Under the pieces are notes generated by a model that saw nothing but the letters and a program-made list of their open reading frames with translations, was not told where the DNA came from and searched no databases. A stretch of 64,000 bases of DNA, taken from positions 444,466 to 508,465 of the forward strand of contig JBMYYF010000002.1 in assembly GCA_049609145.1 (NCBI GenBank), written 5' to 3'. Positions 3,211-64,000 of this stretch are shown here, piece by piece. The stretch's first letter is position 1. Each line of letters opens with the position of its first letter. The DNA comes from Alphaproteobacteria bacterium. Its GTDB lineage: Bacteria > Pseudomonadota > Alphaproteobacteria > SPJN01. A program made the position numbers and the translations under genes.

Positions 3211-3213
3211 ACG

Positions 3214-6315: not shown

Positions 6316-6596
6316 GCGCAAATCTCCCTCACCACCCGGAAAACGCATTTGCTGCGCGCCAAACCGGAATTTACTCACATTGTCCCGCAATAATGAGCGT
6401 CATTTGAAAAATATCAGCGATATATGCCTGAAACATATGTGCAATACGAGTCAAAATCTTTCATATTGAGGACGAAGTTTGGCTGGACAATGGGCCAAGC
6501 GGGGCATTAGAATCGGCAGTAACTAACCAAGTGACATAGTCACGGGTCGAATTGGGCGTCGACCTACCGAGGGGATTTCAAGTGAGGAACATCGTT
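6316..6596. promoter_or_regulatory. divergent intergenic region between the T1SS operon and the RTX adhesin gene; contains the perfect palindrome GTGAC-ATA-GTCAC (6531..6543)
   Basis: A 281-bp AT-richer spacer lies between two divergently oriented starts. The palindrome is read directly from the sequence. Promoter or operator function is inferred only. Confidence 0.35.
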
Positions 6597-33828: not shown

Positions 33829-33890
33829 CAGGCGGCGTGGCGCTCCTTCCCATCTTCTCTCTCCCCAGCCGCGTCGCCTGATTTCTTTTT
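33829..33890 (+). terminator. intercistronic stem-loop plus U-rich tract between the precursor gene and the MNIO gene (candidate partial terminator/attenuator)
   Basis: 13-bp stem CAGGCGGCGTGGC (33829..33841) / GCCGCGTCGCCTG (33868..33880) with two G.U pairs and a 26-nt C/U-rich loop, followed by ATTTCTTTTT. Confidence 0.45.
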
Positions 33891-33909
33891 GAGAACCCAA
33901 GGTCATTCC

Positions 33910-34791
33910 ATGTCTTCCGCCATGCAATCCCAGCCTCTGACCGTTTTCGGCAATGATCTGCCCGCTTGCGCCGGCATTTCGCTGAAGGCCGATCACTATG
34001 AGACGATAGGGCAGGGGAATGTCTCTACCGGGTTTTTGGAGGTGCATGCCGAGAACTATTTTGGCGCAGGTGGTACGCCGCATCATTGGCTTTCCAAGGC
34101 GCGGGAAAACCATGCCCTGTCGGTCCACGGGGTTGGCTTGTCGCTTGGCAGTGCTGCGCGGGTGGATCAAGATCACCTATTGCGGTTGAAAGCGGTTGTG
34201 GATCGCTATCAACCCCAGCAGGTGTCTGAACACATTGCCTTTGCCCGACACGAAGGCGCGTTCCTTAATGATTTGTTGCCGCTGCCCTATACGGACGAGG
34301 CGTTGGCGTGGCTCGTAGACAATATTGATGAAACGCAGCAGGCACTGGGGCAGCGTATATTGGTTGAAAACCCGTCCACTTATTTAACCTTTGCGCATTC
34401 CACCCTTCCCGAAACGGAATTCATTGTAGAGGCTTGCCGCAAGTCCGGCGCAGGGCTGCTGCTCGATATCAATAACGTCTATGTATGCGCGCGCAATCAC
34501 GGCTTTGAGGCCGCGGCGTGGTTGGCGGATATTCCCGCAGATCTGGTGGGCGAAATTCATCTCGCCGGGCACACAGTCAAACAGGTGGAAGGCGTAGAGC
34601 TGCGCATTGATGATCATGGTAGCGCGGTTTGTAAGGAAGTCTGGGCGCTCTACGAAAGTGTCATCGCGCGCATCGGCCCACGCCCCACGCTCATTGAATG
34701 GGACACGGATGTGCCGCCACTTGCCACATTGTTGGCAGAGGCCGCAAAGGCAGATGCGATCATGGCGCATAAGGCGGTGGCAAATGGCTAA
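33910..34791 (+). CDS. bufB: DUF692 / MNIO (multinuclear non-heme iron oxidase) family RiPP-modifying enzyme, BufB-like
   Basis: The track ORF starts at 33889; the first ATG is at 33910 (33922 is an alternative). DUF692/UPF0276 TIM-barrel motifs present: GISLKADHY, LEVHAENYF, SVHGVGLSLGS, VSEHIAF, LVENPSTY, LLDINNVYV, EIHLAGH, PTLIEWD. Confidence 0.88.
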   Translation: MSSAMQSQPLTVFGNDLPACAGISLKADHYETIGQGNVSTGFLEVHAENYFGAGGTPHHWLSKARENHALSVHGVGLSLGSAARVDQDHLLRLKAVVDRYQPQQVSEHIAFARHEGAFLNDLLPLPYTDEALAWLVDNIDETQQALGQRILVENPSTYLTFAHSTLPETEFIVEACRKSGAGLLLDINNVYVCARNHGFEAAAWLADIPADLVGEIHLAGHTVKQVEGVELRIDDHGSAVCKEVWALYESVIARIGPRPTLIEWDTDVPPLATLLAEAAKADAIMAHKAVANG

Positions 34792-35566
34792 CATGCTTTC
34801 ATTGAAAGATTTGCAGGCAGGCTTTGCCGCGCAAGCCATTCCCGCCACCGGCAAAGCCCCGGCAGGTCTGGTGGATTGCGTGTTGGGCAATGGCCTTGCG
34901 CCCGCCGCCCGGCTGCGCGTTCATGCCAACAATACCCGGCTTACCCTAACGGATGCCTTATCCAAAACCTTTCCGGTGATCGCGGCGCTGACCGGTGGTG
35001 AGTTCTTCGCGGCGCTGGCAGCGCACTATATAGAGGCCGATCCTCCAAGGTCCGCCGCCTTGATTGATTGGGGCACGGGCTTTGCAGAGTTTCTGGCAGG
35101 TTTTCAGCCTGCGCAGCAGCTACCCTATTTGCCGGATATGGCGCGCCTTGAATGGGCGGTAAGCGAAAGTTTCAACGCGGCAGATAATGCACCCGCCACG
35201 GCTGATAGCCTGAACGCAATGAACCCGGCCGAGTTGGCCGATGCGCCCTTGCCTTTACACAGCGCGGCCCATTTGCTGAAAGCGGATTGGCCCGTTGATG
35301 ATATTTGGGCGGCGCACCAGCCGGGCGGCCTATCGCTAGATGATATTGATATGACAGGCGGTGATTACCGCATTTTGGTGACGCGCCCCCAATTGGGCGT
35401 GTTCGTGCATCGCTTGGAAGGTGCCGCGGCAGAACTGGCATATTTGTTGAATGAGGGCACGCCCTTTGGCAATGCGCTGGCAGTCTTGGGCGCAGAAGGC
35501 GGGGCCGCCTTTGCGCATTTACTATCTATCGGGGCGCTTGCCACGCCACAAATTGAGGAGGGCTGA
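34784..35566 (+). CDS. bufC: DUF2063-family partner protein (BufC-like, putative precursor-recognition subunit)
   Basis: The long track ORF (34607) overlaps bufB out of frame. I prefer ATG 34784 (MANMLSLKDLQAGFAAQ), which overlaps the bufB stop by 8 nt; ATG 34793 is an alternative. DUF2063-like motifs: RLRVHANNTRLTLTDALSKTFPV and PYLPDMARLEWA. Confidence 0.78.
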   Translation: MANMLSLKDLQAGFAAQAIPATGKAPAGLVDCVLGNGLAPAARLRVHANNTRLTLTDALSKTFPVIAALTGGEFFAALAAHYIEADPPRSAALIDWGTGFAEFLAGFQPAQQLPYLPDMARLEWAVSESFNAADNAPATADSLNAMNPAELADAPLPLHSAAHLLKADWPVDDIWAAHQPGGLSLDDIDMTGGDYRILVTRPQLGVFVHRLEGAAAELAYLLNEGTPFGNALAVLGAEGGAAFAHLLSIGALATPQIEEG

Positions 35567-50730: not shown

Positions 50731-53700
50731 ATGAGCATGAATCGCATCGTATTGGGCTTGAGCGGAGCTCTGCTGGGCACAACTGCGTTAACAACCGCCT
50801 TGCTGGGAACTTTGACAACCGGGGCACAGGCCGCAGATGTTGAAACGGATTCTGCCTTGGCTGCGGCAACCGTGGTCTTTGATCTTGCCGTAAACGAAAA
50901 AGTTGGCACCGCGCAAACCAATGGAGCAGATATCGTTGGGTTGATTACGGGGTCTACCGTTGATGTGACCGTTGTTGGCGCATATGCCGGAGACGCGATT
51001 GCCAGCAACAGCGCTATCAGCGTTGACAGTGCCGGTAATGTTGCCGATTTCTCCATCGCGGGCGGTGCCCCCGGCGCGCGTCGTGCCATTGGATCGGGCC
51101 AGCTTAACACCGAAGATGTTACCAGCACGTTGACCGGGGCCTTTACAGGCGTGAGCGTGACCGGCTCAATCATTGATCCGGCGACGGTGACGGTAGAAGG
51201 CAATCTGCAACAGGTTGTCTCCACCGTGAACGACAGCGCGGTGAACATTGCCGCCAGCGGGGCCTTTAGCGGCACACTGGATGCACCGGCCACGGATTTG
51301 ACCGGCAACGCCGCAGACGCGACCGGAGAGATCGCAGCAGCCATTTCCCAGCATTCGATTGATACCGCTCCCCCCAGCTTAATTGATACGCGCGCCACCT
51401 TGGGCGGGCTTGCTGCGACAGAAGTCAATATGATCGGGCTGGAGCTTGGGGCGGCTACCCCGATGAGCAATCCGGCCGGGGCCACGATCAGCGGCAATAC
51501 GGGCCAAGCCATTGCGCAAGGCAACGTTGCAAGCCTGACCGCGACAGAGGCTGTGAACGGCACGGATATTGATGTGGCGCTGGCCACAAATCAAACCGTG
51601 GATAGTTTAGCGGTCGTGCACGCCGAAGGGTTTCAAAACCGCGTGGGTATTCATGGTGCGGCCGGTGCCAATGTTGATGGGACGGGCGGCACCGTTAACA
51701 TCGCGATCTCGGATAACAGCACAAATCTGGTTTCAGCCGTGAACACGGCCACGCATAATGTCACCGCCGGTCCGGGGGATGCCGCCAGTCAGGTCGTGTC
51801 TGATATTGCGCAGGCAGGCGGTGTGGGTGATGCGCGCTTTCGCGATACCAGCCATGGGGTTGAACTGGAAGATGGTGCCATCACCGGGGCTAATATTACC
51901 ATCAGCGGCTCTACCCTTGCCGGGCAGGCAACAAATAATGACGCCACCCAGAACCTGACTTTGACCGGTGGCGTCGTGGCGGGCACCGTAGCCACCACCA
52001 CGACCCAAAACACCGGGGCAGGCGACATAGTGCAAGTCTTGCCTGCGATCGGCGAGATGCGCATTGGGGTGCGCACCGGCGGCAATGCGATCACCTCCAC
52101 CGATCTTACCATTAGCGGCAATGCCATTACCGGCACGGCAATAGGCAATCGCGCCACTGATAATCTGGCGGACATCACCGGCAATATTACCGCTGGCGTG
52201 GGCCAAACCATCACCCAAGGGTCCGATGGCGCGGCGGTGCAGGCCTTGGTGAATGATGATGGTGATGACATTGTGATCGGTATTGATGATGCGACTGAGT
52301 TTAACGACGGCAATTTGCTGATCAGCAATAACAATATTGGGGCAAGTGCCACAGGCAACGCCGCTGTGCAAAACCGCGGTGATCTGACCGGGGCAATCTC
52401 TGCCACAGTCAGCCAAAATGTTGCACAAACCAGCGATAATATCACCTCTATGCGCGCCGCTGTATCAGACGCGGTATTTGGGCCGGATGGCACGAGCGAC
52501 ACAAATCTGGCGCGGAACACCGGGGATGTGGATTTTACCGTCAGCGGCAATGCGGTGACAGCACAGGCAGATGTAAATGCCGTTAGCCGCACTTTGGGCA
52601 CAGTAACCGGCACAGTGACCGGGGCGGATGTTGTGGCGAGCACAACACAGGCCAACGACACAATTGGCGGGGCCGCTGTGGCCGCCCAACTTTCCGGCCT
52701 TTCCTTCGGGGTGGGGTCTGACGGCGGCAATGGCGGCCTCTTCGGTGATTTTGGCAGCAACAGCACCGATGTGACCATCACAAACAACAGTGCCACCGCA
52801 GCGATGCGGGGCAATGTAGCGATCACCACGTCTGAACCTGTTTTGGGCGGCTTGGCAGATTTTGCCACCGGCGGGGCTGATGGCGGCTCCATCACCGTGC
52901 TGGAAGATCAAAACAATACGGCTACCACATTGTTGGCGGAGGTTTCCGACGGGGTTGCCACCCATGGGGTGGCGATCGGCATTATTGGTCAAACGGGCTT
53001 CCTCGGCCCCCGCGAAGACCACAGTATTATCATCAGCGGCAATCAGGTGGGCACGCAGGTGGAGGGCAATGTGGCCGCCACGGCTTTGGGCAGCATTACG
53101 GGCACCTTTACAGATGGCGGTGTTGCTAATTTTGAAGGGGTGGGCGCGCGCCACCGCCAGTCCAATGGTGGAGACAACAGCTTTAGCGCCCAAACTTCTG
53201 ATGTTGCTATTGGCGGCACAGGATCACATTTTCTACTCGGATTGAATTTTGGCCAAGTCTCAACCATGCTGGTGGAAGGCAATGATATTTCTGCCAGCGC
53301 CACAGCGAACAATTCGCAGATCAGCCTTGCCGGTTTTACCGGCACGTTAAGTGATAATTACGCTATTGGCCGCCCGCAAATTACGCCGGATGGGGATATT
53401 GCGCCTAATACCACGCTGGCGCAAACCACGGCCAGCAGTTCGATCAGCGCCAGCACCGCCAACAGTTCCGTCGGTATCCATGATATTGAGGTCGTATCCG
53501 GGGGTGGGCGGTCAGATATTACAGTGGGTGGCAATACGATAAGCGCGCTGGCCACTGGCAATGCCGCGCGCTACAACTTTGGGGCCTTTAACGGCACGCT
53601 GAGCGGCGGGGCCGATCACATATTCGGCGCTTATCAGGCCAATTCAAACGTTGATGTGCTGGCCACCTTGAACCCGGTAGCGACAGACAGCCTGCGTATT

Positions 53701-55800
53701 GGTATCAATAATTTAAGCAGTCGATTTGCGGATCTTGGTCCAGCGACGGCGACGATTCAGGGCAATACAGCCTTGGCGCAGGCGATCAGCAATACAAACG
53801 CCTTACGGCTGGACAGCTTTACCGGCAATGCCAGTGGCGCAGGCACAGAGGCGCTGTTCTTCCGGTCCGTACAATGGACCAATGACACCTTCGGCGCGTC
53901 CACCGTGATCGCCAGGGCAGATCAACTAACCCTCGGCGTTAATGATGTGGGCGGTATGGGGAATAATATCAACGCTAATGCCGAGATAGTGGTGACGGAT
54001 AATGTGTTCGGCGCCGTGTCTTTGATGAATGTCAGTGATCAATCTGTGGGGGCCATTACCGCTGCCACGATTGAGGATGGCGCGCGGATTTATCTGGGCA
54101 CAGAACACATGGAATGGGCACCCGTTACACCCATTACAGGCACGGCCAGCCTGGCCAACAGTCGTTTGGGCGTGATTAATGTGGGGGACATTGGAAGTTT
54201 TTTCTCCTCTTCTGCACAAATTACGATCAGTGACAATGTCGCCCGGGCCTCGGCCTTTGGGGGCTCCGTCTCTTTGATTGTGGAAGAATTTAATGGCACC
54301 TTGGCCTCCACCGGGCCTGCGGGGTCAGCCGGTATTCATCTCAATCATTTTAATGATGCAATTACGGCGCGGTTCAACGCCACGATCAACAATGTGCAAA
54401 TTGGCGTTGGGGCAGGTAATGTTGCTGCACCAGAAAATACGAGTGCCAATTTTGCCATTACGGGTAATCAGGTGTTGGCGACGGCAGGTGGGGATACGGC
54501 GACACTGGGCCTGTTCACCAATGGCTTTACGGGCACCTTGTCCGGTTCTGCCTTGTTTGAGGTGGAACAGCGCTTTATCGGGGCCTCTCAATCCAACGCG
54601 ACGATTCAGAACACAACGACAGGCCTTGCTTCTGGGGGGAGCGTGGCCGCTGGCAGCGGCAGCGTTGTCAATCTGACCGTGGCGGGCAACAGCCATGTGG
54701 CCACTGCCGGGGCAAATGATGCCACACTCATTCTGGGCGATATTACGGGCACCTTGTCTGGCTCAATCTCGCTTGACACAACCGTGCGCAACCAATTGCA
54801 AAGCCACGCCCCAACAGCCATCACCTCTCAAGTGATCGATAGCGGTATCGGCTTTTCCGCAGGCGCGTTGGCGCAAGGGGCCGGGGCAAGCCTTGGGGTT
54901 GTCGTGACCAATAACCGGCAAGCGGCCACTGTTACCGTCAACAATATGGCGATTGCCGCCGGGGCGATTGTGGGCGGTGTTTCCGGCTCTATCACCTTGC
55001 GGGATGAACAACGGGTTTCCGGTGACAGCACCGCGACAATCAATAATGTCGATACAGGGATGCGCATTGTTGGCTTGGTCGGGACTAACGACGTTCGACC
55101 TACGCTTAATGTTTCTGGCAATATCACGCAGGCGGCTTTGACAGCGAACCGATCCGTCACCCGCGTGGAAGAATTGGTGATGGCAGGTCAAGGCAATGTA
55201 AGCTTGGGTGCCACGCAAAATATGGTGCCGGATGGTAGCGGTGATCCAGATATCTCAGCGGTGGTCACCAATAGTGTGGAAACCGGGATTGATATTTTCA
55301 CGCCCGCCGGAGGGACGCTCAATGTGGATGGTATTGTCGCCAACAATAACACATCGGCTGATGTTGCGGGCAATGTTGCCATCAGCGCCGTGCTGGATTT
55401 GGGCGGTGTTCTTTCAGCACCCGGCTCCGTATTGGTGGAAGATGTGCAAACCATAAGCGCAGGCACCATCGGGTCGTCAGTTAGCGGGGCTTATACTCAA
55501 ATTGACCTGACGGCAGGTACCATTATCGGCTCTGCCATTTTGAACGAAAACAGGATTGGCAGCTCCGCCGTGGGGAACGCCCAGATGGCTGATATCGCCA
55601 CATCAGGTCTTGCCGTTGGCGGCATAATCGGCATTGGCGGCACCCAAAGCAACGCGGCACCTGTCAGTTCTTCGGTCACAGGTTCAGCGATCGGGGTTGA
55701 AGGCAATACAAGCGTATCCATGACCAATACCAGCATTGTGCGTGGTGGCGGGATCACATCGCAGGCTATTGGCAACAGCGCCGTTGGTTCCATTCGCTGA
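50731..55800 (+). CDS. giant (1,689 aa) secreted beta-strand/beta-helix-like repeat protein, paralogue 1; family not recognised
   Basis: GGGAGTGG lies upstream, and the Sec signal peptide is MSMNRIVLGLSGALLGTTALTTALLGTLTTGAQA/AD. It has on the order of 20 repeats of ~70-80 aa with the core [IV]-x-[GN]-N-x-h-x-A-x-A-x-G-N-x-A-x(3)-h-x-x-h-T-G-T. The composition is G/A/T/N/S/V-rich. By eye there is no Cys and only one Lys. Confidence 0.85.
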   Translation: MSMNRIVLGLSGALLGTTALTTALLGTLTTGAQAADVETDSALAAATVVFDLAVNEKVGTAQTNGADIVGLITGSTVDVTVVGAYAGDAIASNSAISVDSAGNVADFSIAGGAPGARRAIGSGQLNTEDVTSTLTGAFTGVSVTGSIIDPATVTVEGNLQQVVSTVNDSAVNIAASGAFSGTLDAPATDLTGNAADATGEIAAAISQHSIDTAPPSLIDTRATLGGLAATEVNMIGLELGAATPMSNPAGATISGNTGQAIAQGNVASLTATEAVNGTDIDVALATNQTVDSLAVVHAEGFQNRVGIHGAAGANVDGTGGTVNIAISDNSTNLVSAVNTATHNVTAGPGDAASQVVSDIAQAGGVGDARFRDTSHGVELEDGAITGANITISGSTLAGQATNNDATQNLTLTGGVVAGTVATTTTQNTGAGDIVQVLPAIGEMRIGVRTGGNAITSTDLTISGNAITGTAIGNRATDNLADITGNITAGVGQTITQGSDGAAVQALVNDDGDDIVIGIDDATEFNDGNLLISNNNIGASATGNAAVQNRGDLTGAISATVSQNVAQTSDNITSMRAAVSDAVFGPDGTSDTNLARNTGDVDFTVSGNAVTAQADVNAVSRTLGTVTGTVTGADVVASTTQANDTIGGAAVAAQLSGLSFGVGSDGGNGGLFGDFGSNSTDVTITNNSATAAMRGNVAITTSEPVLGGLADFATGGADGGSITVLEDQNNTATTLLAEVSDGVATHGVAIGIIGQTGFLGPREDHSIIISGNQVGTQVEGNVAATALGSITGTFTDGGVANFEGVGARHRQSNGGDNSFSAQTSDVAIGGTGSHFLLGLNFGQVSTMLVEGNDISASATANNSQISLAGFTGTLSDNYAIGRPQITPDGDIAPNTTLAQTTASSSISASTANSSVGIHDIEVVSGGGRSDITVGGNTISALATGNAARYNFGAFNGTLSGGADHIFGAYQANSNVDVLATLNPVATDSLRIGINNLSSRFADLGPATATIQGNTALAQAISNTNALRLDSFTGNASGAGTEALFFRSVQWTNDTFGASTVIARADQLTLGVNDVGGMGNNINANAEIVVTDNVFGAVSLMNVSDQSVGAITAATIEDGARIYLGTEHMEWAPVTPITGTASLANSRLGVINVGDIGSFFSSSAQITISDNVARASAFGGSVSLIVEEFNGTLASTGPAGSAGIHLNHFNDAITARFNATINNVQIGVGAGNVAAPENTSANFAITGNQVLATAGGDTATLGLFTNGFTGTLSGSALFEVEQRFIGASQSNATIQNTTTGLASGGSVAAGSGSVVNLTVAGNSHVATAGANDATLILGDITGTLSGSISLDTTVRNQLQSHAPTAITSQVIDSGIGFSAGALAQGAGASLGVVVTNNRQAATVTVNNMAIAAGAIVGGVSGSITLRDEQRVSGDSTATINNVDTGMRIVGLVGTNDVRPTLNVSGNITQAALTANRSVTRVEELVMAGQGNVSLGATQNMVPDGSGDPDISAVVTNSVETGIDIFTPAGGTLNVDGIVANNNTSADVAGNVAISAVLDLGGVLSAPGSVLVEDVQTISAGTIGSSVSGAYTQIDLTAGTIIGSAILNENRIGSSAVGNAQMADIATSGLAVGGIIGIGGTQSNAAPVSSSVTGSAIGVEGNTSVSMTNTSIVRGGGITSQAIGNSAVGSIR

Positions 55801-55823
55801 TTGGGCTCGCATCGCCAACACTT

Positions 55824-55863
55824 AAAGGCGCGTCTTCTTGAAGTAGGGAGGCGCGCTTTTTTT
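55824..55863 (+). terminator. hairpin terminator after paralogue 1 (sequence-conserved with 61155..61193)
   Basis: AAAGGCGCG-loop-CGCGCTTTTTTT within the conserved module AACACTTAAAGGCG[C/T]GTCTTCT...AGGCGCGC. Confidence 0.55.
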
Positions 55864-56142
55864 GTTGCCCCAAGTGCGCCGAGACTTCTGCATCCTTCTT
55901 GGCTTTGAACGCGGATGAAGCTGTAAAGCGTGTCTGAAGGGTGATCTTGGTGGGTTTCAGGCAAAAAACCGGCATATTCTGGACAGAAACCCGCAATTTT
56001 CTTGCCAGCCGCCCTCAAATAGATGAAAATTTCCGTGAGTTTAAGGGTTGGTTTTGAGGTTGGCGATTTTTTGGTCGTGCGATCCCTCTGTCTATACCAA
56101 GGCCTAAACATGTCGCGTAACGCACAAACATTCGGGGTGGCT

Positions 56143-59100
56143 ATGTCCAAATTGCACAAAAACCTGGTTTCCGGTCTGTCGGGCCTGCTGCTTGGCACGA
56201 CAGCGTTGACAGGTGTCGCTGTGGCGCAGGTTGACGTTACGTCGAATGCGACCGTGCCCAGCGTGGTGTTTGGTGTTGCACCTGTTGTGAACCAACAACT
56301 ATCGGCAGCGCAGGGCCATGCGGCGCCGGTCACAGGCTCCATCGTTGGCACGGATGTATCGGTGATTGCCGCAGGCCCCATCGCAGCAGATGTGATTATC
56401 AGCTCCACGGTTTATGGGGCGGCAGGCACGGCCAACAGCGCCACGGAAACCATTTTGGCAAGTGCGGCAGGCGACAGGCGTTCTGTCGGGGTGGCGCAAG
56501 ATAATTCGGGCGCGGTGGTGTCGGAAACACTCAGCAGCCTGACCGGGCTTGATTTACAGCATATCGCCAGCGGCCCCATGGTGGTGGAGGTGGATAACAC
56601 GACCTATACCGTTGCCTCCCAAGCCAATGTCTCAACCGCTTTCAACGCCGGCGGGGCGCTGGTGACGGGCAGTGCGCTTGATGATGCAACAACCACTGTG
56701 GGTGCAGGCACGGCCACGGCCTTGGGCGAGATTGCAATTGCCACGGCCCAGACAAATAGTGGCGAGGTGACGAGCGATTTAAATGATGGCAACACAGCGA
56801 CCCGCAATTTGATTGGGGTGGAGATGTCCAGCGGGACGGCCTCTATCACCAATACGGGCGGGGTGATTGTGTCCAACACCACGGCCACCGCCATGGCAAC
56901 GGCCAACAGCGCCACCAGCACAGTGGTGGATGCCGTGACCGTGGGGGATGTTGATGTGGCAGTCGCCACCTTCCAATCCATCAGCAGCGGGGCGGATATT
57001 ACTGCCGATGCCCGAGAAAATCATATCGGGATTGAGGGCGTGGGCGGTGCCTCTATCACCGGGGCAGCGCCCGGCGCCATCCCGCTGACCATTAGCGATA
57101 ATCATATGGGGTCTGAGGCCACAGGCAACAGCGCCACCCATACTATCACGGCGCGGCCCGATGCGGCGGGGGATCAGGTGGTGGGTGCCATTTTGCAAGA
57201 TTTCCAAGCGGGATCGGAGGTTGATGTACGCACGAGAAGCAACACATTTGGTGTCTCCACCCGGGATACGAACCTGACAGGTGCCACAATTACCATTAGC
57301 GGCAATCGCGGTACGGCCACCGCGATCGGCAATGAAGCCGCGCAGGATGTGCTGGTTGATGTGGGCGGTGTTGGCGGGGCCGGCATCACCACCACAACCA
57401 CGCAAACCGCGGCAGAGGAAGACGTTGAAGGGCGAGTTGATGACGCTCTGATTGGGGTTGAAGTGCGGCCGGATGGTGGCGGTTTTGGCGGCACGTTGAG
57501 TGGCGCAACTGTGCTGATAGAGGGTAATGAAATGCTGGGCACTGGTTTGGTGAATACGGCCCGCCAATCTTTGGGTGCTGTCACCGGTGATATTACGGCC
57601 CCAATTGCCCAAACGATCAACCAAACAGTTGGTCCGGGAAGCACGGGCGGCGCCGAGGCAGATGCGGTTTCTAACAATTTTGGTGTGTCGCGCGCGACGG
57701 GGATCAATAATACCAGCATTCAAATCTCCAATAACCGCAATGTGGCTACCACAATCTACAATAATGCGGAGAGCTTGCGCGGCGATCTAACCGGCACCAT
57801 CACCGCCTCCGTCACGCAGGATGTGATCCAACGCAATGAAGATCTGGGTAGCGGTGCTGAAAGCGAGGCCAGGGCGGCGTATTTCGGTGTTAACTTTGAT
57901 ACTGATGCCGCCTTGGCGCAGGCAGATGGGGATGTGAACCTGCTGGTTGCCAACAATATATCGCTCGCCCATGCCACCAACAATATGGCAGTGGCACGCA
58001 GCGGGGCGATTGCCGGTGTGGTAAGCGGTACAATTAATGTGAGCGTTTCTGCCACGCAAACAAATTTTGATACGGATGTCGAATCAGACACATCAAGTTC
58101 TGAAATCGGCATTACCCGCGGTTTCAACACCACGCCTCTTGGGACTGATACATATCATACGGATTTAACGGTTGCGGGGAATGAACTGCGCGCGCTGAGC
58201 CAAGGCAATGCAGCCGCGTTGGCAGCGGGAGATGTAACCGGCACTTTGTCTGCCGGGGCAAATTATGGGGTGACCTCTACCCAGCTTAATAGACGCGCTA
58301 TTGATGGCACGGGGGATGGGGGGGAGATTCGGGCTCAAGCTGGCGAATCGCGCATTGGGTGGAGGCGGCAAACTGTTGCCCATGGGATAGATGATCAGGA
58401 TTTCACTATTCTGGTGCAAAACAATGTGAGCGCCGTAACCGCCATTGGCAATATGGCCGCCCATGAAGTGGGGCAGATTACCGGCACTGTGGATGGCAGC
58501 ACGGTCACCGCCCGCGCCACCCAAACCAATGAGGATGGGGATGATGATGGGGAGATTGTGGCCGATGGTGGTAATCCGATTATCGGCATTATCTCTGATA
58601 ATGGCGCCTTTGTGTTGGGGACGATGTCCAACAATGTGGCGACCTTTGCGGTAACGGGTAACCGCAGTGAGGTGGATGGCATTGGCAACACAGCCAGCGT
58701 CGCCATTGGGGATGTAACCGGCACGGTGAGTGATAACAGTTCCGTTAGGGCGGAAATTGACCAAACCAATAGCGGGCTGGACTTAACGTCGGATGCCGGT
58801 TCCATTGATATGGGCGTGCAGGCAGGCGGTGGCACCGATAGTGCGGGAAGTGATGGCACGGTGGTGATTGATGTCACCAATAATATCAGTGAGGCCACAA
58901 CTACCGGCAATGCGGCTTTGGCCCAGTTGGGGGATATGACCGGCACCATCGACGACTCAGACTATTTAATCAATACGACGCAAACCAGTCAGCAATTTGA
59001 TAGCACTGACAGCACTTTTAGGGCGCGCGCTGAAGAGGGGCGGATAGGCTATTTCGCCAGCGCCGTCATGGGACGCAGCGGTTCGGTGCGCACCACGATC

Positions 59101-61131
59101 TCCGGCAATGCTGTTTCGGCCACCACGCAGGTGAACGATGCCACCAATGTGCTGGCCGGGGCCTCCGGCACGATCGATGGTTCATCAATAGTGGGCGCGG
59201 GAAATATTCAGACAGTGTCATCGGCCATTGCGTCTGCCACGGCAACCGACAATGCGATCGGCGCCGTTGAGTTGACCGGGGATATCGCTGATGAGGGCGA
59301 TGTTGCCCTCACCGTTTCCGGCAATAGTGTTGGCGCTGCGACGAGCCTGAACACCTCAACGCAATTGGTGGCGGGTGCCGTTGGTACGGTAGGGAGCGAC
59401 AGTGTCTTCGGCATGGGTACTACTCAAAACGCCACCCCGGCAGGTGGCGCGACGGTAAGTGCCACCACCACGGTGTCTGATGCACAGATTGGCGTGTCTG
59501 CTGATGGCACCGCCACAGATATTGCGAATGAACAAGATGCTACGGCATCGCTCAATGTAACCGGCAATAGCTTGGGGGCAGCAGCGACTGGCAATGCCGC
59601 CACCCAAACACTGAATGCAGTTACCGGTACGGTTGATGGCCTCTCGGTCATTCTCTCGGAGCAGGGGCTGGACGCCGGGGTGATTGTCAGCAGTGGCTTA
59701 GGCACCTTGGCCCCTGTGGGCATTGGCGTGTTGGGTGTGGACGACATATCGGACACGACTAGGGCAACTGCCAATATCGCAATTGCTGGCAACACCGCAA
59801 CGTCAACTGCCTCTGGCAACGGCCTCGTCCAGAATATTATGCCCGGCGGTTTGACCGGCACCTTGGCGGGGGCATTTATATCTGATCCGATACAATTCAT
59901 AGACGGTGCAGATATCGATGCCGTGACAAGCGGGGCGCAAATCGGCCTGTCACATGATGGGAGCGGCGCTGATACTTCCGATAGTAGTGACGCGGTCACC
60001 AATGTGGCCGTATCCGCCAATTGGATTGGCGCGGCGGCCACTGGCAATAGGGCCAATCTCAATCTGGGGGATGTGACCGGCACCGCCAGCGGCGACATAA
60101 CGCTGATACCGCTTCAAACAAATAGCGGCAATACAGATATTGATGCCGCCTTGAACATCACCGGCATTGGGGTAGAGCGTGTGGGTCATGTTGGCAATGG
60201 GGCCAACAGTATCACCACCATGACGGTGGCGGGCAATGTGCAAACTGCCTCTCTCATCGCCAATGATGCGACCATCAACACCGGTGATCTGGTAGGGGCG
60301 CTTTCCAACACGGTGACACTCACCACGGATCAAGCCAACACGCTGGGCACCTCCCAATATTCCGCCACGATCCTGAATTCGGATACGGGGATACGCATCA
60401 TAGGTGATGTCGCTGATAGCACTGGCTCAAGCTTCACCCCCATTGTCGCGAACAACAACACAGTCGCCAGCCTTGTGGGCAACCGCTCCGGTGTGCGCCT
60501 GCGCGCGCTGGCGGTGAGCGGCGGTGGTGCCACGGTGAATGTAGGGGCAACGCAACTTAATGTTGGCACAGGCAGCCCGAACCCGTCCCTGCTGGCCTCC
60601 TTGGATGACAGCATTGAGACGGGCGTGCATCTGCCCGGCGAAGCCCGTGATGGTATCAATGCCATCGTGTCCGGCAACAATGCCTCAGCCGATCTGATTG
60701 GTAATGCCGCCGTCACCCAATTTGATGATGTGGGTGGCGTGTTGACCGGCTCCATCAATGTGGCCGACAACCAAACCAATACGGATATCTTTGGCACCGC
60801 CAGTGCGGCAGATGTCTTCACCCAGATTGATGCCAATAGCGGGGCCACACTTGCTGTCTCATCTGTGCTGAATGACAACCGCATCGGCACGTCGATCACC
60901 GGCAATCTGCAGGTGGCCCAGATCAATACATCCGGCCTGTCTGTTGGCGGTGTGATCGGTATCTCCGGTACCCAGTCCAACACTGGCGGGGCCTTCCGCG
61001 CGACGGTGACAGGCTCGATCATCGGGGTGGCGGCCAGTGCGGCAACCTCGATCACGGGTACCAGCATTGTGCGGGGCAGCACGATTGGGGCCACCGCCAT
61101 CGGCAACAGCGCGACTTCGTCCATCCGCTGA
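56143..61131 (+). CDS. giant (~1,662 aa) secreted repeat protein, paralogue 2 of 50731..55800
   Basis: The track ORF starts at 56023. I prefer ATG 56143 (MSKLHKNLVSGLSGLLLGTTALTGVAVAQ/VD), which aligns with the paralogue-1 signal peptide; 56110 is an alternative. At least 17 repeat cores are readable, e.g. VAGNELRALSQGNAAALAAGDVTGTLSA, VTGNSLGAAATGNAATQTLNAVTGTVDG and VSANWIGAAATGNRANLNLGDVTGTASG. I see no Lys or Cys after the signal peptide. Confidence 0.85.
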   Translation: MSKLHKNLVSGLSGLLLGTTALTGVAVAQVDVTSNATVPSVVFGVAPVVNQQLSAAQGHAAPVTGSIVGTDVSVIAAGPIAADVIISSTVYGAAGTANSATETILASAAGDRRSVGVAQDNSGAVVSETLSSLTGLDLQHIASGPMVVEVDNTTYTVASQANVSTAFNAGGALVTGSALDDATTTVGAGTATALGEIAIATAQTNSGEVTSDLNDGNTATRNLIGVEMSSGTASITNTGGVIVSNTTATAMATANSATSTVVDAVTVGDVDVAVATFQSISSGADITADARENHIGIEGVGGASITGAAPGAIPLTISDNHMGSEATGNSATHTITARPDAAGDQVVGAILQDFQAGSEVDVRTRSNTFGVSTRDTNLTGATITISGNRGTATAIGNEAAQDVLVDVGGVGGAGITTTTTQTAAEEDVEGRVDDALIGVEVRPDGGGFGGTLSGATVLIEGNEMLGTGLVNTARQSLGAVTGDITAPIAQTINQTVGPGSTGGAEADAVSNNFGVSRATGINNTSIQISNNRNVATTIYNNAESLRGDLTGTITASVTQDVIQRNEDLGSGAESEARAAYFGVNFDTDAALAQADGDVNLLVANNISLAHATNNMAVARSGAIAGVVSGTINVSVSATQTNFDTDVESDTSSSEIGITRGFNTTPLGTDTYHTDLTVAGNELRALSQGNAAALAAGDVTGTLSAGANYGVTSTQLNRRAIDGTGDGGEIRAQAGESRIGWRRQTVAHGIDDQDFTILVQNNVSAVTAIGNMAAHEVGQITGTVDGSTVTARATQTNEDGDDDGEIVADGGNPIIGIISDNGAFVLGTMSNNVATFAVTGNRSEVDGIGNTASVAIGDVTGTVSDNSSVRAEIDQTNSGLDLTSDAGSIDMGVQAGGGTDSAGSDGTVVIDVTNNISEATTTGNAALAQLGDMTGTIDDSDYLINTTQTSQQFDSTDSTFRARAEEGRIGYFASAVMGRSGSVRTTISGNAVSATTQVNDATNVLAGASGTIDGSSIVGAGNIQTVSSAIASATATDNAIGAVELTGDIADEGDVALTVSGNSVGAATSLNTSTQLVAGAVGTVGSDSVFGMGTTQNATPAGGATVSATTTVSDAQIGVSADGTATDIANEQDATASLNVTGNSLGAAATGNAATQTLNAVTGTVDGLSVILSEQGLDAGVIVSSGLGTLAPVGIGVLGVDDISDTTRATANIAIAGNTATSTASGNGLVQNIMPGGLTGTLAGAFISDPIQFIDGADIDAVTSGAQIGLSHDGSGADTSDSSDAVTNVAVSANWIGAAATGNRANLNLGDVTGTASGDITLIPLQTNSGNTDIDAALNITGIGVERVGHVGNGANSITTMTVAGNVQTASLIANDATINTGDLVGALSNTVTLTTDQANTLGTSQYSATILNSDTGIRIIGDVADSTGSSFTPIVANNNTVASLVGNRSGVRLRALAVSGGGATVNVGATQLNVGTGSPNPSLLASLDDSIETGVHLPGEARDGINAIVSGNNASADLIGNAAVTQFDDVGGVLTGSINVADNQTNTDIFGTASAADVFTQIDANSGATLAVSSVLNDNRIGTSITGNLQVAQINTSGLSVGGVIGISGTQSNTGGAFRATVTGSIIGVAASAATSITGTSIVRGSTIGATAIGNSATSSIR

Positions 61132-61193: not shown

Positions 61194-61556
61194 GCTGGCC
61201 TCTCCCATCTCCTATTGTAGTTATACTTCATGAATATGAGTTATTTTTGTGTCATTTTGAGCAACCACAAGGGCTTTAGGCGCCGCTGCGTGTGTGCCCG
61301 GATCAGTGCCATGGCAAGTACTCACTCTTTAGTGTGATTCTACCTCCACCTTTAGGTTGGTTGACTTGGGGTGGTTGATGATGAAGATCATTACATATTC
61401 TTTGTGATTGTGATTGCAAAGGCGGATGATCGCCCTTCGTGCCGGGGTTGATTTTCCTGAAGCTTAATCTTGGCACCGTAAGTTCAAGGAGTGGCTCTTC
61501 CCTGTTCGGGCTCAGCCTGCGCCTTTTAGGCTTATTTCTGGAAGGGAGAGTGGGTT

Positions 61557-64000
61557 ATGGGGCTATTTCCGCGTTTACCGAAGCTTGTGATTGTGAGCGA
61601 TGTTGAGACATCCCATACAGTTAATACGGGACTGGACACGACAGAGGCACGGCTTGCCAATCCTTGGCCTTTTTACACTGTTCCCAATTTACTTGCGGAT
61701 ACAGCCGCCAGCGCCTTCAAGACTTTCGGCACATTGCAGCGTGTGACGCTTTGGCCGTTCGCGTCGCTGGAGGAAAATTTGGGGCAGTTGAACTTGCTGA
61801 CAGGGCATGTCTTCCCCACCTTGCCGGTGCTGGAAGATGACGTTTATGAAGTGCCGGAGACGGATTCTGGCAACATACTGACCCTTGATGTTCTGGCGAA
61901 CGACCGGGACGACAATGTGCTGAACAATGTGTCACCCTTGCTGGGGCCGGAGATGATCATTCGCGAGATTGATTTGACCGGATTTACTTTGGGTGATGTC
62001 ACCATTGCAGAAGATGGCCAAAGCCTTGTTTATCAGGCGCTGGAAGGTGTTGTGCTGGGGCCGGGGCAATCGCTGGAAGAAACCTTTACCTATAGCGTCA
62101 CCAATCTAACAGGCCGCACATCCACCGCTGAAGTTACCATCACGATCTTCAATGTAAACGAAGCGCCAATAGCGGAAGACATTGTCCAAATCATCACTGA
62201 GAATATTCCAGCCATTGTGGTGGAAGCGGTGTTTAGTGATGGGGATCCGGGTGATCAGCATGTGATCAGCTTGAATCCAGCGGGGACTGATACGACGCAA
62301 GGTAATGTCAGTCAAAATCCGGATGGCAGCTTCAGCTACGATCCCGGCACGGCCTTTGATTATTTGGCCGTGGGCGAAGAAGCAACCGACAGCTTCACCT
62401 ATCAGGTTGAAGACCTTGAAGGGGCAACGGACACAGCGACGGTAACACTGACCCTTACCGGTGAGAATGATGCGGTTGAGCTGACGCCGGGCGCAGGCAC
62501 AATTGTGTCTGCCGATGTGATCGAATTTTCCGATGCCGATGGCAGTGCGGAAAACTCTGTCACCCAAACCCGCGCAGGGCAGATATTTTTCGGTGATGCG
62601 GATGTAACCGACACACATACAGCCAGGTTCTCACCGGCAGCCAGCAGCGGCTATTTGGGCGGCTTTGCGATCAGCGCCCCGACCACGACGAACAGCACTA
62701 CGCAAGGACAAGTCGGTTGGACTTTTGCGGTTGCCGATGGCGGCTTGGATTTTCTGCGCGAAGGGGAAACCCGCCAACAGTTTTACGATGTAGTGATTGC
62801 AGATGGCCACGGTGGTGATCTCACCCAGCAGGTTGAGGTGACGATCACCGGCACCAATGATGCCGTGGGCATATTGGGTAGCCATGTCAGTGATCTGACT
62901 GGCAGCGCAACCGAGGTGGCGGATGAAGCGGCGGGCGAAAATACCCAAATTCACAACATTACCGGCACGGTTTTATTCAGCGATGTGGATTTGGCAGATG
63001 GTCACACCGTAACGCTCACCCCACTGGACAGCACTGCCGGTAACTTTGTCGGCGCTATGGGCGCGCCAACCCTTACCCGCGCAGCCGGGGACGTTCAGGG
63101 CAAGGTGGATTGGTCCTATGAAGTGAATGATGCCTTGCTGGATAGCTTGGGCGTGAATGACACCATTGTTGAACGCTTCACCCTGACCATTATGGATGAT
63201 GCGACCAACCAATCCATTGCGACCGAAATTATTGAACTTACGCTGCAAGGCGTGAATGATACGCCGACATTGGTGAACGGCGCGGCTGCGGCGGCAGAAG
63301 ATGGTGACACCATCCAGATTGATCTGGCGGCTTTAGGTGATGATGCCGATGCGGAAGATAATGGCAGCACATTGGGCTATGCCATCTCTCAAGGCCCCCC
63401 TGAGGGACAGGGGAGTATTACGGGCACGACATTGACGTTCGATCCGGGGGCAGATTTCCAAGATCTTGCTTTGGATGAAACCCGCGATGTGATTATCGGC
63501 CTCACCGCCACCGACGCCCAAGGCGCGGTTTCTGATGTCAATACGATCACAATCACGGTTGCGGGTGTGAATGATGCGCCCACCTTGATAGACGGGGCAA
63601 CAAGCGGACTGGAGAATGAAGGTCTCAATCTTGATCTCGCCGCGCTGGGGGATGATGTAGACAGCGATAATGACGGCGGTGATCTGACTTACGAAATTGT
63701 GGGTGCGCCGGAATATGGCAACGCGTCCATCACGGGCACGTCGCTGAGCTTGGATCAGGGCACAGATTTTGATGATCTCGCCACAGGCGAAGCACGCCAG
63801 GTCACAGTGGAGGTGCAAGCCACCGATCGTCATGGGGCTGTTTCTACAACACAATCGGTCATTTTCACCGTAACAGGTGTGAATGATGCGCCCATAATCG
63901 TCGAGGCGGATCAGGCAGATACCATCACCGAAACCGCCAGCGGTGGCGGTGTCGCTGATGGGCCGGATGAACCCGATGACAGTACCGCCAATGCGGATAA
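61557..64000 (+). CDS. giant VCBS / cadherin-like repeat adhesin, 5' part (814+ codons, open at the window end)
   Basis: Absent from the ORF track because it has no stop in the window. ATG 61557 is preceded by GGAAGGGAGAGTGGG. My translation MGLFPRLPKLVIVSDVETSH... continues without a stop to 64000. It contains repeated ~100-aa modules ending ..TVT(L/I)TGxNDAP/NEAP (FNVNEAPIAEDI, TLTGENDAV, ITGTNDAV, LQGVNDTPTL, VAGVNDAPTL, VTGVNDAPII) and TFTYxVxD-type strands typical of VCBS repeats. Confidence 0.8.
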   Translation, partial: MGLFPRLPKLVIVSDVETSHTVNTGLDTTEARLANPWPFYTVPNLLADTAASAFKTFGTLQRVTLWPFASLEENLGQLNLLTGHVFPTLPVLEDDVYEVPETDSGNILTLDVLANDRDDNVLNNVSPLLGPEMIIREIDLTGFTLGDVTIAEDGQSLVYQALEGVVLGPGQSLEETFTYSVTNLTGRTSTAEVTITIFNVNEAPIAEDIVQIITENIPAIVVEAVFSDGDPGDQHVISLNPAGTDTTQGNVSQNPDGSFSYDPGTAFDYLAVGEEATDSFTYQVEDLEGATDTATVTLTLTGENDAVELTPGAGTIVSADVIEFSDADGSAENSVTQTRAGQIFFGDADVTDTHTARFSPAASSGYLGGFAISAPTTTNSTTQGQVGWTFAVADGGLDFLREGETRQQFYDVVIADGHGGDLTQQVEVTITGTNDAVGILGSHVSDLTGSATEVADEAAGENTQIHNITGTVLFSDVDLADGHTVTLTPLDSTAGNFVGAMGAPTLTRAAGDVQGKVDWSYEVNDALLDSLGVNDTIVERFTLTIMDDATNQSIATEIIELTLQGVNDTPTLVNGAAAAAEDGDTIQIDLAALGDDADAEDNGSTLGYAISQGPPEGQGSITGTTLTFDPGADFQDLALDETRDVIIGLTATDAQGAVSDVNTITITVAGVNDAPTLIDGATSGLENEGLNLDLAALGDDVDSDNDGGDLTYEIVGAPEYGNASITGTSLSLDQGTDFDDLATGEARQVTVEVQATDRHGAVSTTQSVIFTVTGVNDAPIIVEADQADTITETASGGGVADGPDEPDDSTANAD

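What the first reader, a model, noticed from the sequence alone, without database searches (positions are those of the whole stretch)
50731..61131. Tandem pair of giant, Sec-dependent, virtually Lys- and Cys-free repeat proteins of an unrecognised family
Two adjacent co-directional genes encode 1,689-aa and ~1,662-aa proteins with the same architecture. Each has a related Sec signal peptide (..LSG.LLGTTALT..), then on the order of 20 degenerate ~70-80-aa repeats with the core h-x-[GN]-N-x-h-x-A-x-A-x-G-N-x-A-x(3)-h-G-D-h-T-G-T-h, which reads like a right-handed beta-helix or beta-solenoid. Each ends in a conserved ~86-aa C-terminus, ..IVRG..I...AIGNSA..SIR. Several expected features are absent: RTX GGxGxD repeats, VCBS/cadherin modules, an autotransporter barrel, a TpsB partner, and any sortase, PEP-CTERM or T9SS-type tag I can recognise. 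By eye the mature paralogue 2 contains no Lys and no Cys in about 1,630 residues, and paralogue 1 contains a single Lys. Arg is the only basic residue. That depletion goes well beyond ordinary acidic-protein bias. It would make the proteins resistant to Lys-specific proteases and to Lys-directed chemistry. Together this suggests an abundant surface array (S-layer-like) or fibre with an unknown export and anchoring route.
Basis: partly seen in the sequence, partly recalled or inferred. Interest (0 to 1): 0.7.

Follow-up and report, generated by a model that had tools for sequence, protein, structure and literature searches.

The report
Giant lysine-free cargo of HfaB/CsgG pore
Two neighbouring genes encode very large, repetitive, lysine- and cysteine-free secreted proteins from a rare unnamed family, and their relatives, including a third copy in the same organism, sit beside a curli/holdfast-type outer-membrane pore, which points to how they reach the cell surface.

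Summary
P1 (50731-55800, 1,689 aa) and P2 (56143-61131, 1,662 aa) are collinear paralogues at 33% identity. Each has a Sec signal peptide and 18-19 contiguous ~70-aa repeats, and each ends in a truncated repeat. P1 has one Lys. Mature P2 has none. Neither has Cys.

No Pfam, NCBIfam or PDB match exists. An exhaustive search of 1.84 billion proteins found 7 matches. Two AlphaFold models are confident and all-beta, with no significant structural neighbour.

The export route need no longer be called unknown. Five relatives outside this organism lie directly after a lipoprotein gene of the CsgG family that best matches HfaB, the Caulobacter holdfast-anchor translocon. That pore gene follows a small conserved secreted protein, here called X. 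The window's own organism has this operon elsewhere: X, then the pore P0037, then a third paralogue P0002.

P1 and P2 are therefore most likely extra cargo of that pore, crossing the outer membrane unfolded and folding outside. This is inferred, not shown.

Lys avoidance is family-wide: 18 Lys against 413 Arg in 16,396 residues. It is relaxed in one branch and in the N-terminal domains, so it is not a pore constraint. Its cause is unexplained. The S-layer idea is unsupported.

The parts
50731..55800 (+). P1: giant repeat protein gene (1,689 aa plus stop)
   Evidence: ORF. Translation and composition (1 Lys, 0 Cys). A GGGAG Shine-Dalgarno-like motif lies 7-11 nt upstream of the ATG (sequence). 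The exact protein is on record in NCBI and in Logan run SRR27204695.
50731..50832 (+). P1 Sec signal peptide (residues 1-34, MSMNRIVLGLSGALLGTTALTTALLGTLTTGAQA|AD)
   Evidence: Read from the sequence: n-region with Arg5, a hydrophobic core, and A-Q-A at -3/-1. The core LSGxLLGTTALT is shared with P2 and P0002. No predictor was run.
50833..51192 (+). P1 N-terminal region before the regular repeats (residues 35-154). It contains the protein's only Lys (K57).
   Evidence: The repeat HMM gives no significant unit before residue 155. The region aligns with the N-terminal region of P2.
51193..55596 (+). P1 repeat array: 19 contiguous units of about 70 aa (residues 155-1622)
   Evidence: Own repeat HMM, domain E-values 1e-5 to 3.5e-16. 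Consensus.
55597..55797 (+). P1 C-terminal cap: a partial repeat plus a truncated repeat ending ...TSIVRGGGITSQAIGNSAVGSIR
   Evidence: The last residues match repeat positions 5-16 in P1 (weak, E = 0.37) and 1-19 in P2 (E = 8e-5). The motif G-x-x-h-G/T-A/S-x-A-h-G-N-x-A...R is shared by all family members.
55824..55860 (+). Intrinsic-terminator-like hairpin (17 pairs followed by a T run) between P1 and P2
   Evidence: the top-ranked site. It suggests P1 and P2 are separate transcription units. A weak promoter-like site lies at 56002-56030.
56143..61131 (+). P2: giant repeat protein gene (1,662 aa plus stop from Met41; alternative annotated start at 56110)
   Evidence: ORF. Composition: 2 Lys, both in the signal n-region, and 0 Cys. 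The Met41 start is preferred because it matches the N-termini of P1 and P0002.
56143..56226 (+). P2 Sec signal peptide (residues 1-28, MSKLHKNLVSGLSGLLLGTTALTGVAVA|Q)
   Evidence: Read from the sequence. The equivalent site in P0002 is A-L-A|Q. No predictor was run.
56227..56868 (+). P2 N-terminal region before the regular repeats (residues 29-242), with only weak repeat-like matches
   Evidence: only sub-threshold repeat matches at residues 86-144 and 168-238.
56869..60924 (+). P2 repeat array: 18 contiguous units of about 70 aa (residues 243-1594), one to one with P1 units 2-19
   Evidence: domain E-values 1e-8 to 5e-18.
60925..61128 (+). P2 C-terminal cap: a partial repeat plus a truncated repeat ending ...TSIVRGSTIGATAIGNSATSSIR
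   Evidence: It is modelled as the last long strand, residues 358-372 of model m31339dede158.

Best explanation
P1 and P2 belong to an unnamed family of giant (1,300-2,250 aa), acidic, Cys-free and nearly Lys-free repeat proteins. These proteins are the cargo of an HfaB/CsgG-type outer-membrane lipoprotein pore, a curli-like or holdfast-anchor-like two-step route.

Proposed steps:
1. The Sec system exports the precursor and signal peptidase I removes the signal peptide. This is inferred from the sequence.
2. The unfolded chain crosses the outer membrane through the oligomeric HfaB-like pore. In this organism the pore gene (P0037) lies at another locus, between a small conserved secreted protein X and a third paralogue, P0002. 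This step is inferred from genomic association in seven loci and from what is published for HfaB and CsgG.
3. Outside the cell, the ~70-aa repeats fold into a long, rigid, all-beta, probably solenoid-like rod. Conserved Asn, Gln and Gly positions and small Ala/Gly/Ser/Thr residues would form the packed core. This comes from structure prediction.
4. The rods form a surface fibre, coat or anchor. This is by analogy to HfaA/HfaD and curli and is untested.

The absence of Cys fits transport in an unfolded state through a narrow pore. The exclusion of Lys from the repeat region, while Arg is kept, is under strong purifying selection. It is not required by the pore, because X and the N-terminal domains of some relatives contain Lys. 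It more likely protects the folded, exposed, long-lived repeat rod from Lys-directed chemistry, cross-linking or proteolysis. That last point is speculation.
For: Homology: P1 and P2 match pore-linked giants over hundreds to more than 1,000 residues. Examples are P2 vs P0004 at 4e-34, P2 vs P0003 at 2e-26 and P1 vs P0004 at 7e-24. All share a C-terminal truncated repeat that ends in a basic residue.

Operon context of relatives:
- P0005: X, CsgG-family pore, giant, IalB, on two contigs.
- P0004: X, pore, giant, IalB, FG-GAP.
- P0003: the contig starts with the tail of the pore gene.
- Solimonas sp. SE-A11 and Hydrocarboniphaga daqingensis: X, pore, giant, SH3_3.
- Emcibacter sp.: X, pore fused to OmpA, a 405-aa gene, then a giant of the distant branch.

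Same organism: P0037 (CsgG/HfaB family, lipobox LLAGC) is recorded on a 510,538-bp contig, the same length as the contig that carries P1, P2 and P0002. It is also on a contig from the same run, SRR27204695. There it is preceded by X237, and 157 bp downstream begins a gene whose first 28 residues are identical to P0002.

Pore identity: NCBIfam holdfast_HfaB matches at E = 3e-66 to 5e-65 over the whole profile, against only about 1e-10 for the E. coli CsgG model. Pfam CsgG also matches.

Literature: HfaB is a CsgG-like lipoprotein required for surface localisation of the Sec-dependent HfaA and HfaD (PMC6707917; bioRxiv 10.1101/2022.07.20.500906).

Structure: two independent models give pLDDT 83 and 74 and pTM 0.78 and 0.71. 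Both are all-beta with the same strand pattern in each repeat.

Composition: 0 Cys in every member. There are 18 Lys against 413 Arg in 16,396 mature residues.
Against: - No pore, X or IalB gene lies in the 64-kb window (tblastn). P1 and P2 are flanked by housekeeping genes, so the link for P1 and P2 rests on paralogy with P0002.
- The MAG loci of the distant branch (L003-L007) show no pore within 10 kb.
- The pore scores below the HfaB equivalog cut-off: 219-228 bits against 300.
- Neither X nor the giants match any Hfa, curlin or other curated model.
- To my knowledge CsgG/HfaB cargo is small, so a 170-kDa cargo has no described precedent.
- There are no expression, localisation or secretion data.
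Confidence: 0.6

Rival explanations
1. S-layer-like surface array exported by an unrelated or unknown route such as type II secretion. The pore association of the relatives would then be coincidental, or relevant only to P0002.
For: The proteins are large, acidic, Cys-free and Sec-dependent, with no anchor motif. P1 and P2 have no linked secretion gene. P1 is followed by a strong terminator, which is compatible with highly expressed stand-alone genes.
Against: There is no similarity to any S-layer family or structure. Three divergent paralogues in one genome would be unusual for a lattice-forming protein. Seven loci link the family to an HfaB-like pore. A coat-like function is still compatible with export through the pore, so only the 'unrelated route' part is a true rival.
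Confidence: 0.15
2. Periplasmic or outer-membrane-associated structural protein that is exported by Sec but never crosses the outer membrane, for example an envelope-spanning rod or spacer.
For: There is a Sec signal but no recognisable outer-membrane translocation domain in the protein itself. Pores of the Emcibacter type are fused to an OmpA peptidoglycan-binding domain, which shows the system contacts the periplasm.
Against: The conserved position directly downstream of a secretion-pore gene argues for translocation. The composition, which is very acidic, Cys-free and rich in Asn, Gly, Thr and Ser, is typical of extracellular fibre and adhesin proteins; this rests on general knowledge, not a test. 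The published cargo of HfaB is on the cell surface (PMC6707917).
Confidence: 0.1
3. Passenger of a type V (autotransporter or two-partner) or type I (RTX) secretion system, or a beta-helix polysaccharide lyase or hydrolase.
For: The nearest Foldseek neighbours, none significant, are Ag43, TibA, PL6 lyases and polygalacturonases. A type I system and RTX/cadherin giants lie in the same window.
Against: - There is no autotransporter barrel, TPS domain, RTX repeat or lyase family match at E <= 1.
- The C-terminus is a truncated repeat.
- An N-terminal Sec signal is present, unlike the RTX giants of the window.
- There is no TpsB-like neighbour.
- Foldseek TM-scores are 0.05-0.14 and E-values are at least 0.04.
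Confidence: 0.03

Closest known systems
Caulobacter holdfast anchor system HfaA-HfaB-HfaD
   Same: The pore next to the relatives and next to the third paralogue best matches NCBIfam holdfast_HfaB over the full profile and is a lipoprotein. The gene order, a small N/Q/S/G-rich secreted protein, then the pore, then a larger surface protein, parallels hfaA-hfaB-hfaD. In the literature the HfaB cargo is Sec-dependent, surface-located and forms SDS-resistant multimers (PMC6707917; bioRxiv 10.1101/2022.07.20.500906).
   Different: The pore scores below the HfaB equivalog cut-off (about 220 bits against 300). X and the giants match no curated model, so they are not detectably HfaA or HfaD. The cargo here is 1,300-2,250 aa. 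IalB, FG-GAP or SH3_3 genes follow instead of known hfa or hfs genes. The published papers mention cysteines in HfaA and HfaD, whereas these giants have none. The carriers include Nevskiales (Gammaproteobacteria) and non-Caulobacterales Alphaproteobacteria.
Curli system (CsgA/CsgB secreted through CsgG; type VIII secretion)
   Same: The pore is a CsgG-family lipoprotein (Pfam PF03783). Export would be two-step, through Sec and then the pore, in an unfolded state. The cargo is rich in Gly, Asn, Gln, Ser and Ala, contains G-N-x-A motifs and has no Cys. A Pontibacter CsgA structure appears among the non-significant Foldseek neighbours (8c50, E = 0.31).
   Different: There is no Curlin_rpt match. 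The repeat is about 70 aa, against roughly 22 aa for curlin (from my own knowledge). The cargo is a single giant chain of 18-19 covalently linked repeats rather than a polymer of 13-kDa subunits. No CsgE or CsgF homologues were seen. The match to the E. coli CsgG model is weak (E about 1e-10).
Beta-helix passengers of autotransporters and self-associating adhesins (Ag43, TibA, pertactin)
   Same: These are also long, acidic, Cys-poor repetitive beta proteins that cross the outer membrane unfolded and fold outside. They are the top Foldseek neighbours, though non-significant.
   Different: There is no C-terminal barrel and no Pfam match. Predicted strands are 11-22 residues long. TM-scores are about 0.06. 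The associated pore is CsgG/HfaB-type, not Omp85/BamA-dependent type V.

Membership tests
HfaB/CsgG-dependent (curli-like, type VIII-like) cargo | A CsgG/HfaB-family outer-membrane lipoprotein pore is encoded in the same genome | tested here: met
   P0037 is 535 aa, matches Pfam CsgG and NCBIfam HfaB at 4.7e-65, and has the lipobox LLAGC. It comes from the same sequencing run and from a contig of the same length (510,538 bp) as P1 and P2.
HfaB/CsgG-dependent (curli-like, type VIII-like) cargo | The cargo gene is linked to the pore gene | tested here: inconclusive
   Not met for P1 and P2 themselves: no pore, X or IalB homologue lies in the 64-kb window. Met for the paralogue P0002, which starts 157 bp downstream of P0037, and for relatives at six other loci.
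HfaB/CsgG-dependent (curli-like, type VIII-like) cargo | An N-terminal Sec signal peptide, and no Cys that could form periplasmic disulfides | tested here: met
   Signal peptides were read from the sequence, and Cys is 0 in P1, in P2 and in every family member examined.
HfaB/CsgG-dependent (curli-like, type VIII-like) cargo | Secretion depends experimentally on the pore | not testable with these tools
   This needs a pore deletion and localisation of the giant in a cultured carrier.
Curlin (CsgA/CsgB) | Curlin repeat (Pfam PF07012) | tested here: not met
   No Pfam family matches at E <= 1 for P1 or P2, or at E <= 0.1 for relatives.
Holdfast anchor proteins HfaA / HfaD | Sequence match to curated Hfa models or proteins | tested here: not met
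   NCBIfam contains an Hfa model (HfaB matched the pores), but no NCBIfam model matched the giants or X.
Type V secretion (autotransporter / two-partner) | A C-terminal beta-barrel domain, or an N-terminal TPS domain with a TpsB partner | tested here: not met
   No Pfam or NCBIfam match. The C-terminus is a truncated repeat. No Omp85-type neighbour is present.
Type I secretion RTX adhesins | GGxGxD nonapeptide repeats, no N-terminal signal peptide, and a linked ABC/MFP/TolC system | tested here: not met
   No HemolysinCabind match, and a Sec signal is present. The type I secretion genes of the window (1453-6390) sit next to a different giant at 6552-13649, which does carry RTX and cadherin domains.
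S-layer proteins | Similarity to a known S-layer family or structure, or a demonstrated lattice | tested here: not met
   No sequence or fold match to any solved structure. Lattice formation cannot be tested here.
Right-handed parallel beta-helix (pectate-lyase-like) | A significant fold or profile match, with rungs of about 22-25 residues and short strands | tested here: inconclusive
   The only neighbours are beta-solenoids, but at E >= 0.04 and TM 0.05-0.14. The models have strands of 11-22 residues. Model coordinates could not be inspected.

The most novel reading that the evidence does not exclude
These proteins define a previously undescribed class of curli/holdfast-type (HfaB/CsgG pore) secretion systems. 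The cargo is a single giant chain of 170-230 kDa that threads unfolded through the pore and folds outside into a beta-rod with a fold not represented in the PDB. Near-absolute exclusion of lysine from that rod is a selected functional property, for example immunity to Lys-directed cross-linking, chemistry or proteases in the matrix it builds.
Probability: 0.4. Interest if true: 0.75.

Novelty: new variant of a known kind. Interest (0 to 1): 0.62.

Why it matters
To my knowledge CsgG/HfaB pores are known to export small amyloid or anchor subunits. If they also export 1,300-2,250-aa chains, the capacity and energetics of this ATP-independent outer-membrane route would need to be reconsidered.

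The family is invisible to Pfam, NCBIfam and the PDB. NCBI calls it only a 'beta strand repeat-containing protein'. Yet it occurs in cultured bacteria (Hydrocarboniphaga, Solimonas, Emcibacter), so the prediction can be tested directly.

The strict Arg-but-not-Lys rule holds over deep divergence, although about a fifth of the codons are one mutation from Lys. That is an unusually clean signature of selection. Explaining it could reveal an extracellular chemistry or enzyme that acts on lysines.

A naturally Lys-free and Cys-free rigid protein rod could also serve as a scaffold for site-specific chemical labelling.

Tried and rejected
- The word-indexed homology search failed for this low-complexity family. 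It hit the 8,000-candidate limit and did not recover even the query itself, both with P1 and with a C-terminal family alignment. It worked only for the pore, which has normal composition.
- The first exhaustive HMMER job failed because the profile had more than 1,200 positions.
- The first genome scan used patterns specific to P1 and P2 and found nothing. An 8-sequence alignment was too divergent for pattern selection. A 5-sequence alignment worked.
- An alignment of overlapping, repeat-shifted windows was staggered by MAFFT and discarded. I used non-overlapping windows in repeat register instead.
- A literature search for lysine-free surface proteins returned nothing relevant. A search for large CsgG/HfaB cargo also found no description.
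- Searches of the PDB by sequence with P1 and with a family profile found nothing at E <= 1 and E <= 10.
- Foldseek against the viral structure library BFVD gave nothing significant.
- Rejected: X as a relative of the giants' repeats. BLAST and the repeat HMM show no significant similarity.
- Rejected: Lys exclusion as a requirement of the pore. X237 has 7 Lys, and the N-terminal ~150 aa of the Nevskiales giants have 4-8 Lys.
- Rejected: Lys absence through lack of mutational supply, or as a genome-wide bias.
- P0002 could not be looked up in the contig index. Its context was recovered through the pore instead.
Full report
**Observation**

The window holds two co-directional ORFs. The first is at 50731-55800 and encodes 1,689 aa (P1). 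The second is at 56023-61131, and its best start is Met41 at 56143, giving 1,662 aa (P2). The two proteins align end to end at 33% identity, E = 1e-106.

P1 has one Lys (residue 57) and no Cys. P2 has two Lys, both in the signal-peptide n-region, and no Cys. Arg is 42 and 46. The other genes of the window average 3.6% Lys and 0.65% Cys.

The fairest background is the two other giant secreted proteins of the window, where Lys is 22.5% of Lys+Arg. Even against that, the depletion has a probability of 3e-4 for P1 and 8e-6 for P2. About 21% of the codons are one substitution from a Lys codon.

A repeat HMM built from the sequences finds 19 contiguous units of about 70 aa in P1 and 18 in P2. The units correspond one to one between the paralogues. 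Asn4, Asn13, Gly24, Gln37, Ala47 and Gly55 are strongly conserved. There is no DNA-level tandem repeat, so the array is old and is not being homogenised.

The 'conserved C-terminal domain' is a partial repeat followed by a truncated repeat. The last 20 residues of P2 match repeat positions 1-19.

A strong terminator-like hairpin at 55824-55860 separates the two genes.

**Family**

Neither protein matches anything in Pfam, NCBIfam or the PDB by sequence. The relatives do not either.

An exhaustive HMMER search of 1.84 billion representative proteins returned 7 matches:
- P2 itself.
- P0002 (1,676 aa, 38% identical to P2).
- Five others of 233-2,254 aa.

Further members came from metagenome contigs (L008, L009) and from cultured Nevskiales. 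A more distant branch of about 1,700 aa is found in alphaproteobacterial MAGs and in Emcibacter.

All members have a Sec-type N-terminus and no Cys, and all end in the same truncated repeat (G-x-x-h-G-A-x-A-h-G-N-x-A...). In the P1/P2 clade this ending carries a terminal basic residue.

Across the P1/P2 clade there are 18 Lys against 413 Arg in 16,396 mature residues. Eleven of those Lys lie in the N-terminal ~150 aa of the two Nevskiales proteins. The distant branch is less strict, with 5-20 Lys per protein.

NCBI's only name for any member is the generic 'beta strand repeat-containing protein'.

**Context: the key result**

The window itself gives no clue. P1 and P2 are flanked by NUDIX, adenylosuccinate lyase, MFS, ArgJ, PPIase and SecA genes upstream and by a Big_9/cadherin giant downstream. 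tblastn finds no CsgG, IalB or X homologue anywhere in the 64 kb.

The relatives, however, sit in a conserved operon:
- P0005: X (a 215-228-aa secreted N/Q/S/G-rich protein), then a CsgG-family pore, then the giant, then IalB.
- P0004: X, pore, giant, IalB, FG-GAP.
- P0003: the contig begins with the tail of the pore gene.
- P0007: two giants flank IalB in a locus syntenic with that of P0004.
- Solimonas sp. SE-A11 and Hydrocarboniphaga daqingensis: X, pore, giant, SH3_3.
- Emcibacter sp.: X, a pore fused to OmpA, a 405-aa gene, then a giant of the distant branch.

The pores match NCBIfam holdfast_HfaB over the whole profile, at E = 3e-66 to 9e-68. They score about 220-228 bits, below the 300-bit equivalog cut-off. 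They match the E. coli CsgG model much more weakly.

**Same organism**

A search with the pore found P0037, annotated 'MAG: CsgG/HfaB family protein [Alphaproteobacteria bacterium]'. Its longest contig is 510,538 bp. That is the same length as the contig recorded for P1, P2 and P0002.

On a contig from the same run that also carries P1 (SRR27204695), the order is:
- X237, which is 37% identical to the X of P0005;
- P0037;
- 157 bp later, the start of a gene whose first 28 residues are identical to P0002.

The organism therefore has one canonical X-pore-giant operon plus the unlinked P1-P2 tandem pair.

**Structure**

I made two AlphaFold2 models. Their alignments were built from non-overlapping windows of P1 and P2 held in repeat register. 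The models cover P2 residues 1290-1662 (pLDDT 83, pTM 0.78) and residues 602-985 (pLDDT 74, pTM 0.71).

Both are entirely beta. Both show the same pattern in each repeat: strands of roughly 7, 15-22, 5-11, 11-15 and 5-7 residues.

Foldseek finds no significant neighbour in the PDB (best E = 0.04-0.07, TM 0.05-0.14) or in the viral library BFVD. The non-significant top hits are all parallel beta-solenoids: SufBD, Ag43, TibA, PL6 lyases, tailspikes and a Pontibacter CsgA.

I could not inspect the coordinates, so the rung geometry is unresolved. The alignments are shallow, with only 8 rows, and this limits confidence in the models.

**Mechanism**

Published work shows that HfaB is a CsgG-like lipoprotein required for surface localisation of the Sec-dependent HfaA (curlin-like) and HfaD (adhesin/S-layer-like) proteins (PMC6707917; bioRxiv 10.1101/2022.07.20.500906).

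By association, the giants are the cargo of this pore clade. They would be exported by Sec, cross the outer membrane unfolded, and fold outside into a rigid repeat rod.

What is shown here:
- the homology between P1/P2 and the pore-linked giants;
- the operon conservation;
- the presence of the operon in the same organism;
- the composition.

What is inferred:
- that P1 and P2 use the unlinked pore;
- the direction and state of transport;
- the final assembly and function.

The absence of Cys fits transport in an unfolded state. Lys exclusion is not a requirement of the pore, because X237 has 7 Lys and the Nevskiales N-terminal domains have 4-8 Lys. It is specific to the repeat rod and is maintained by selection. 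Its cause remains unexplained. The candidates are resistance to Lys-directed proteases, cross-linking or amine chemistry, or a constraint from stacking of identical positions in the rod.

**Comparison and novelty**

The system works like the holdfast-anchor and curli pathways, but its components fail the membership tests for curlin, HfaA and HfaD. The pore is HfaB-like but below the equivalog threshold.

A cargo of 1,300-2,250 aa, a ~70-aa repeat with no structural neighbour, and near-total Lys exclusion are features I found described nowhere. I rate it a new variant of a known kind.

The 'unknown route' is now a specific, testable hypothesis. The S-layer idea has no support.

Noticed in passing
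window 1453-13649: A separate giant protein at 6552-13649 (2,365 aa) carries RTX and cadherin domains and has no Sec signal. It lies next to a divergently transcribed type I secretion set: ABC transporter 4546-6390, HlyD 3214-4545 and TolC-like 1453-3210. Its Lys content is low but not zero (19 Lys, 0.8%).
   Followed up: partly
window ~61533-64000 (runs off the window end): A third large surface-protein gene starts about 400-600 bp downstream of P2. It has Big_9 and bacterial cadherin-like domains and no obvious signal peptide, and the visible 822 aa contain 4 Lys. This stretch of the genome is rich in giant surface proteins that use different secretion routes.
   Followed up: partly
L015 343-808 vs window 14539-15004: The contig that carries the X-pore-P0002 operon also carries a cytochrome P450 gene. 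It is 76.5% identical at the DNA level over 473 bp to the P450 gene of the window (13809-15071). These are paralogous P450 genes lying roughly 10 kb and 36 kb from the two giant-protein loci.
   Followed up: no
L010 10286-10798; L012 7029-7490; L013 2674-3135; L008 ~4271-4711; L009 ~1061-1501: A small IalB-family (invasion-associated locus B) secreted protein is conserved immediately downstream of the giant gene in several relatives, or between two giants. An FG-GAP protein often follows it. The cultured Nevskiales have an SH3_3 protein there instead. The role of these genes is unknown, and no homologue lies in the window.
   Followed up: partly
L010 1354-2001; L011 17-703; L012 703-1437; L015 9152-9865; L018 9333-10001; L019 5109-5903; L021 9255-9941: The small protein X upstream of every pore gene forms its own conserved, unannotated family. 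Members are 29-39% identical, have a Sec signal, are rich in N, Q, S and G, share a conserved NIDRQ(V/I)NCN-like motif, and have a conserved Cys near the C-terminus. X is Lys-free in some genomes (0-1 Lys) but not in the window organism (7 Lys). It may be the counterpart of HfaA, CsgB or CsgF.
   Followed up: partly
L004 1-10291; L005 1-5756; L013 2-7248: Tandem or near-tandem pairs of giants recur in other genomes, in both branches of the family. The P1-P2 arrangement is therefore a recurrent feature of the family and not a one-off duplication.
   Followed up: partly
window 33889-35566: An MbnB/TglH/ChrH-family (DUF692) gene overlaps a following DUF2063 gene. This pair is typical of RiPP-modification or copper-related clusters. 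CopA-like multicopper oxidase (29036-30676) and CopB (30595-31362) lie nearby.
   Followed up: no
one search hit list (P0038-P0130): Many homologues of the pore are fused to a C-terminal OmpA peptidoglycan-binding domain (PF03783 plus PF00691). They occur in Emcibacter, in Comamonadaceae and in other Betaproteobacteria. The pore clade is therefore widespread, and most of its cargo is unexamined.
   Followed up: partly
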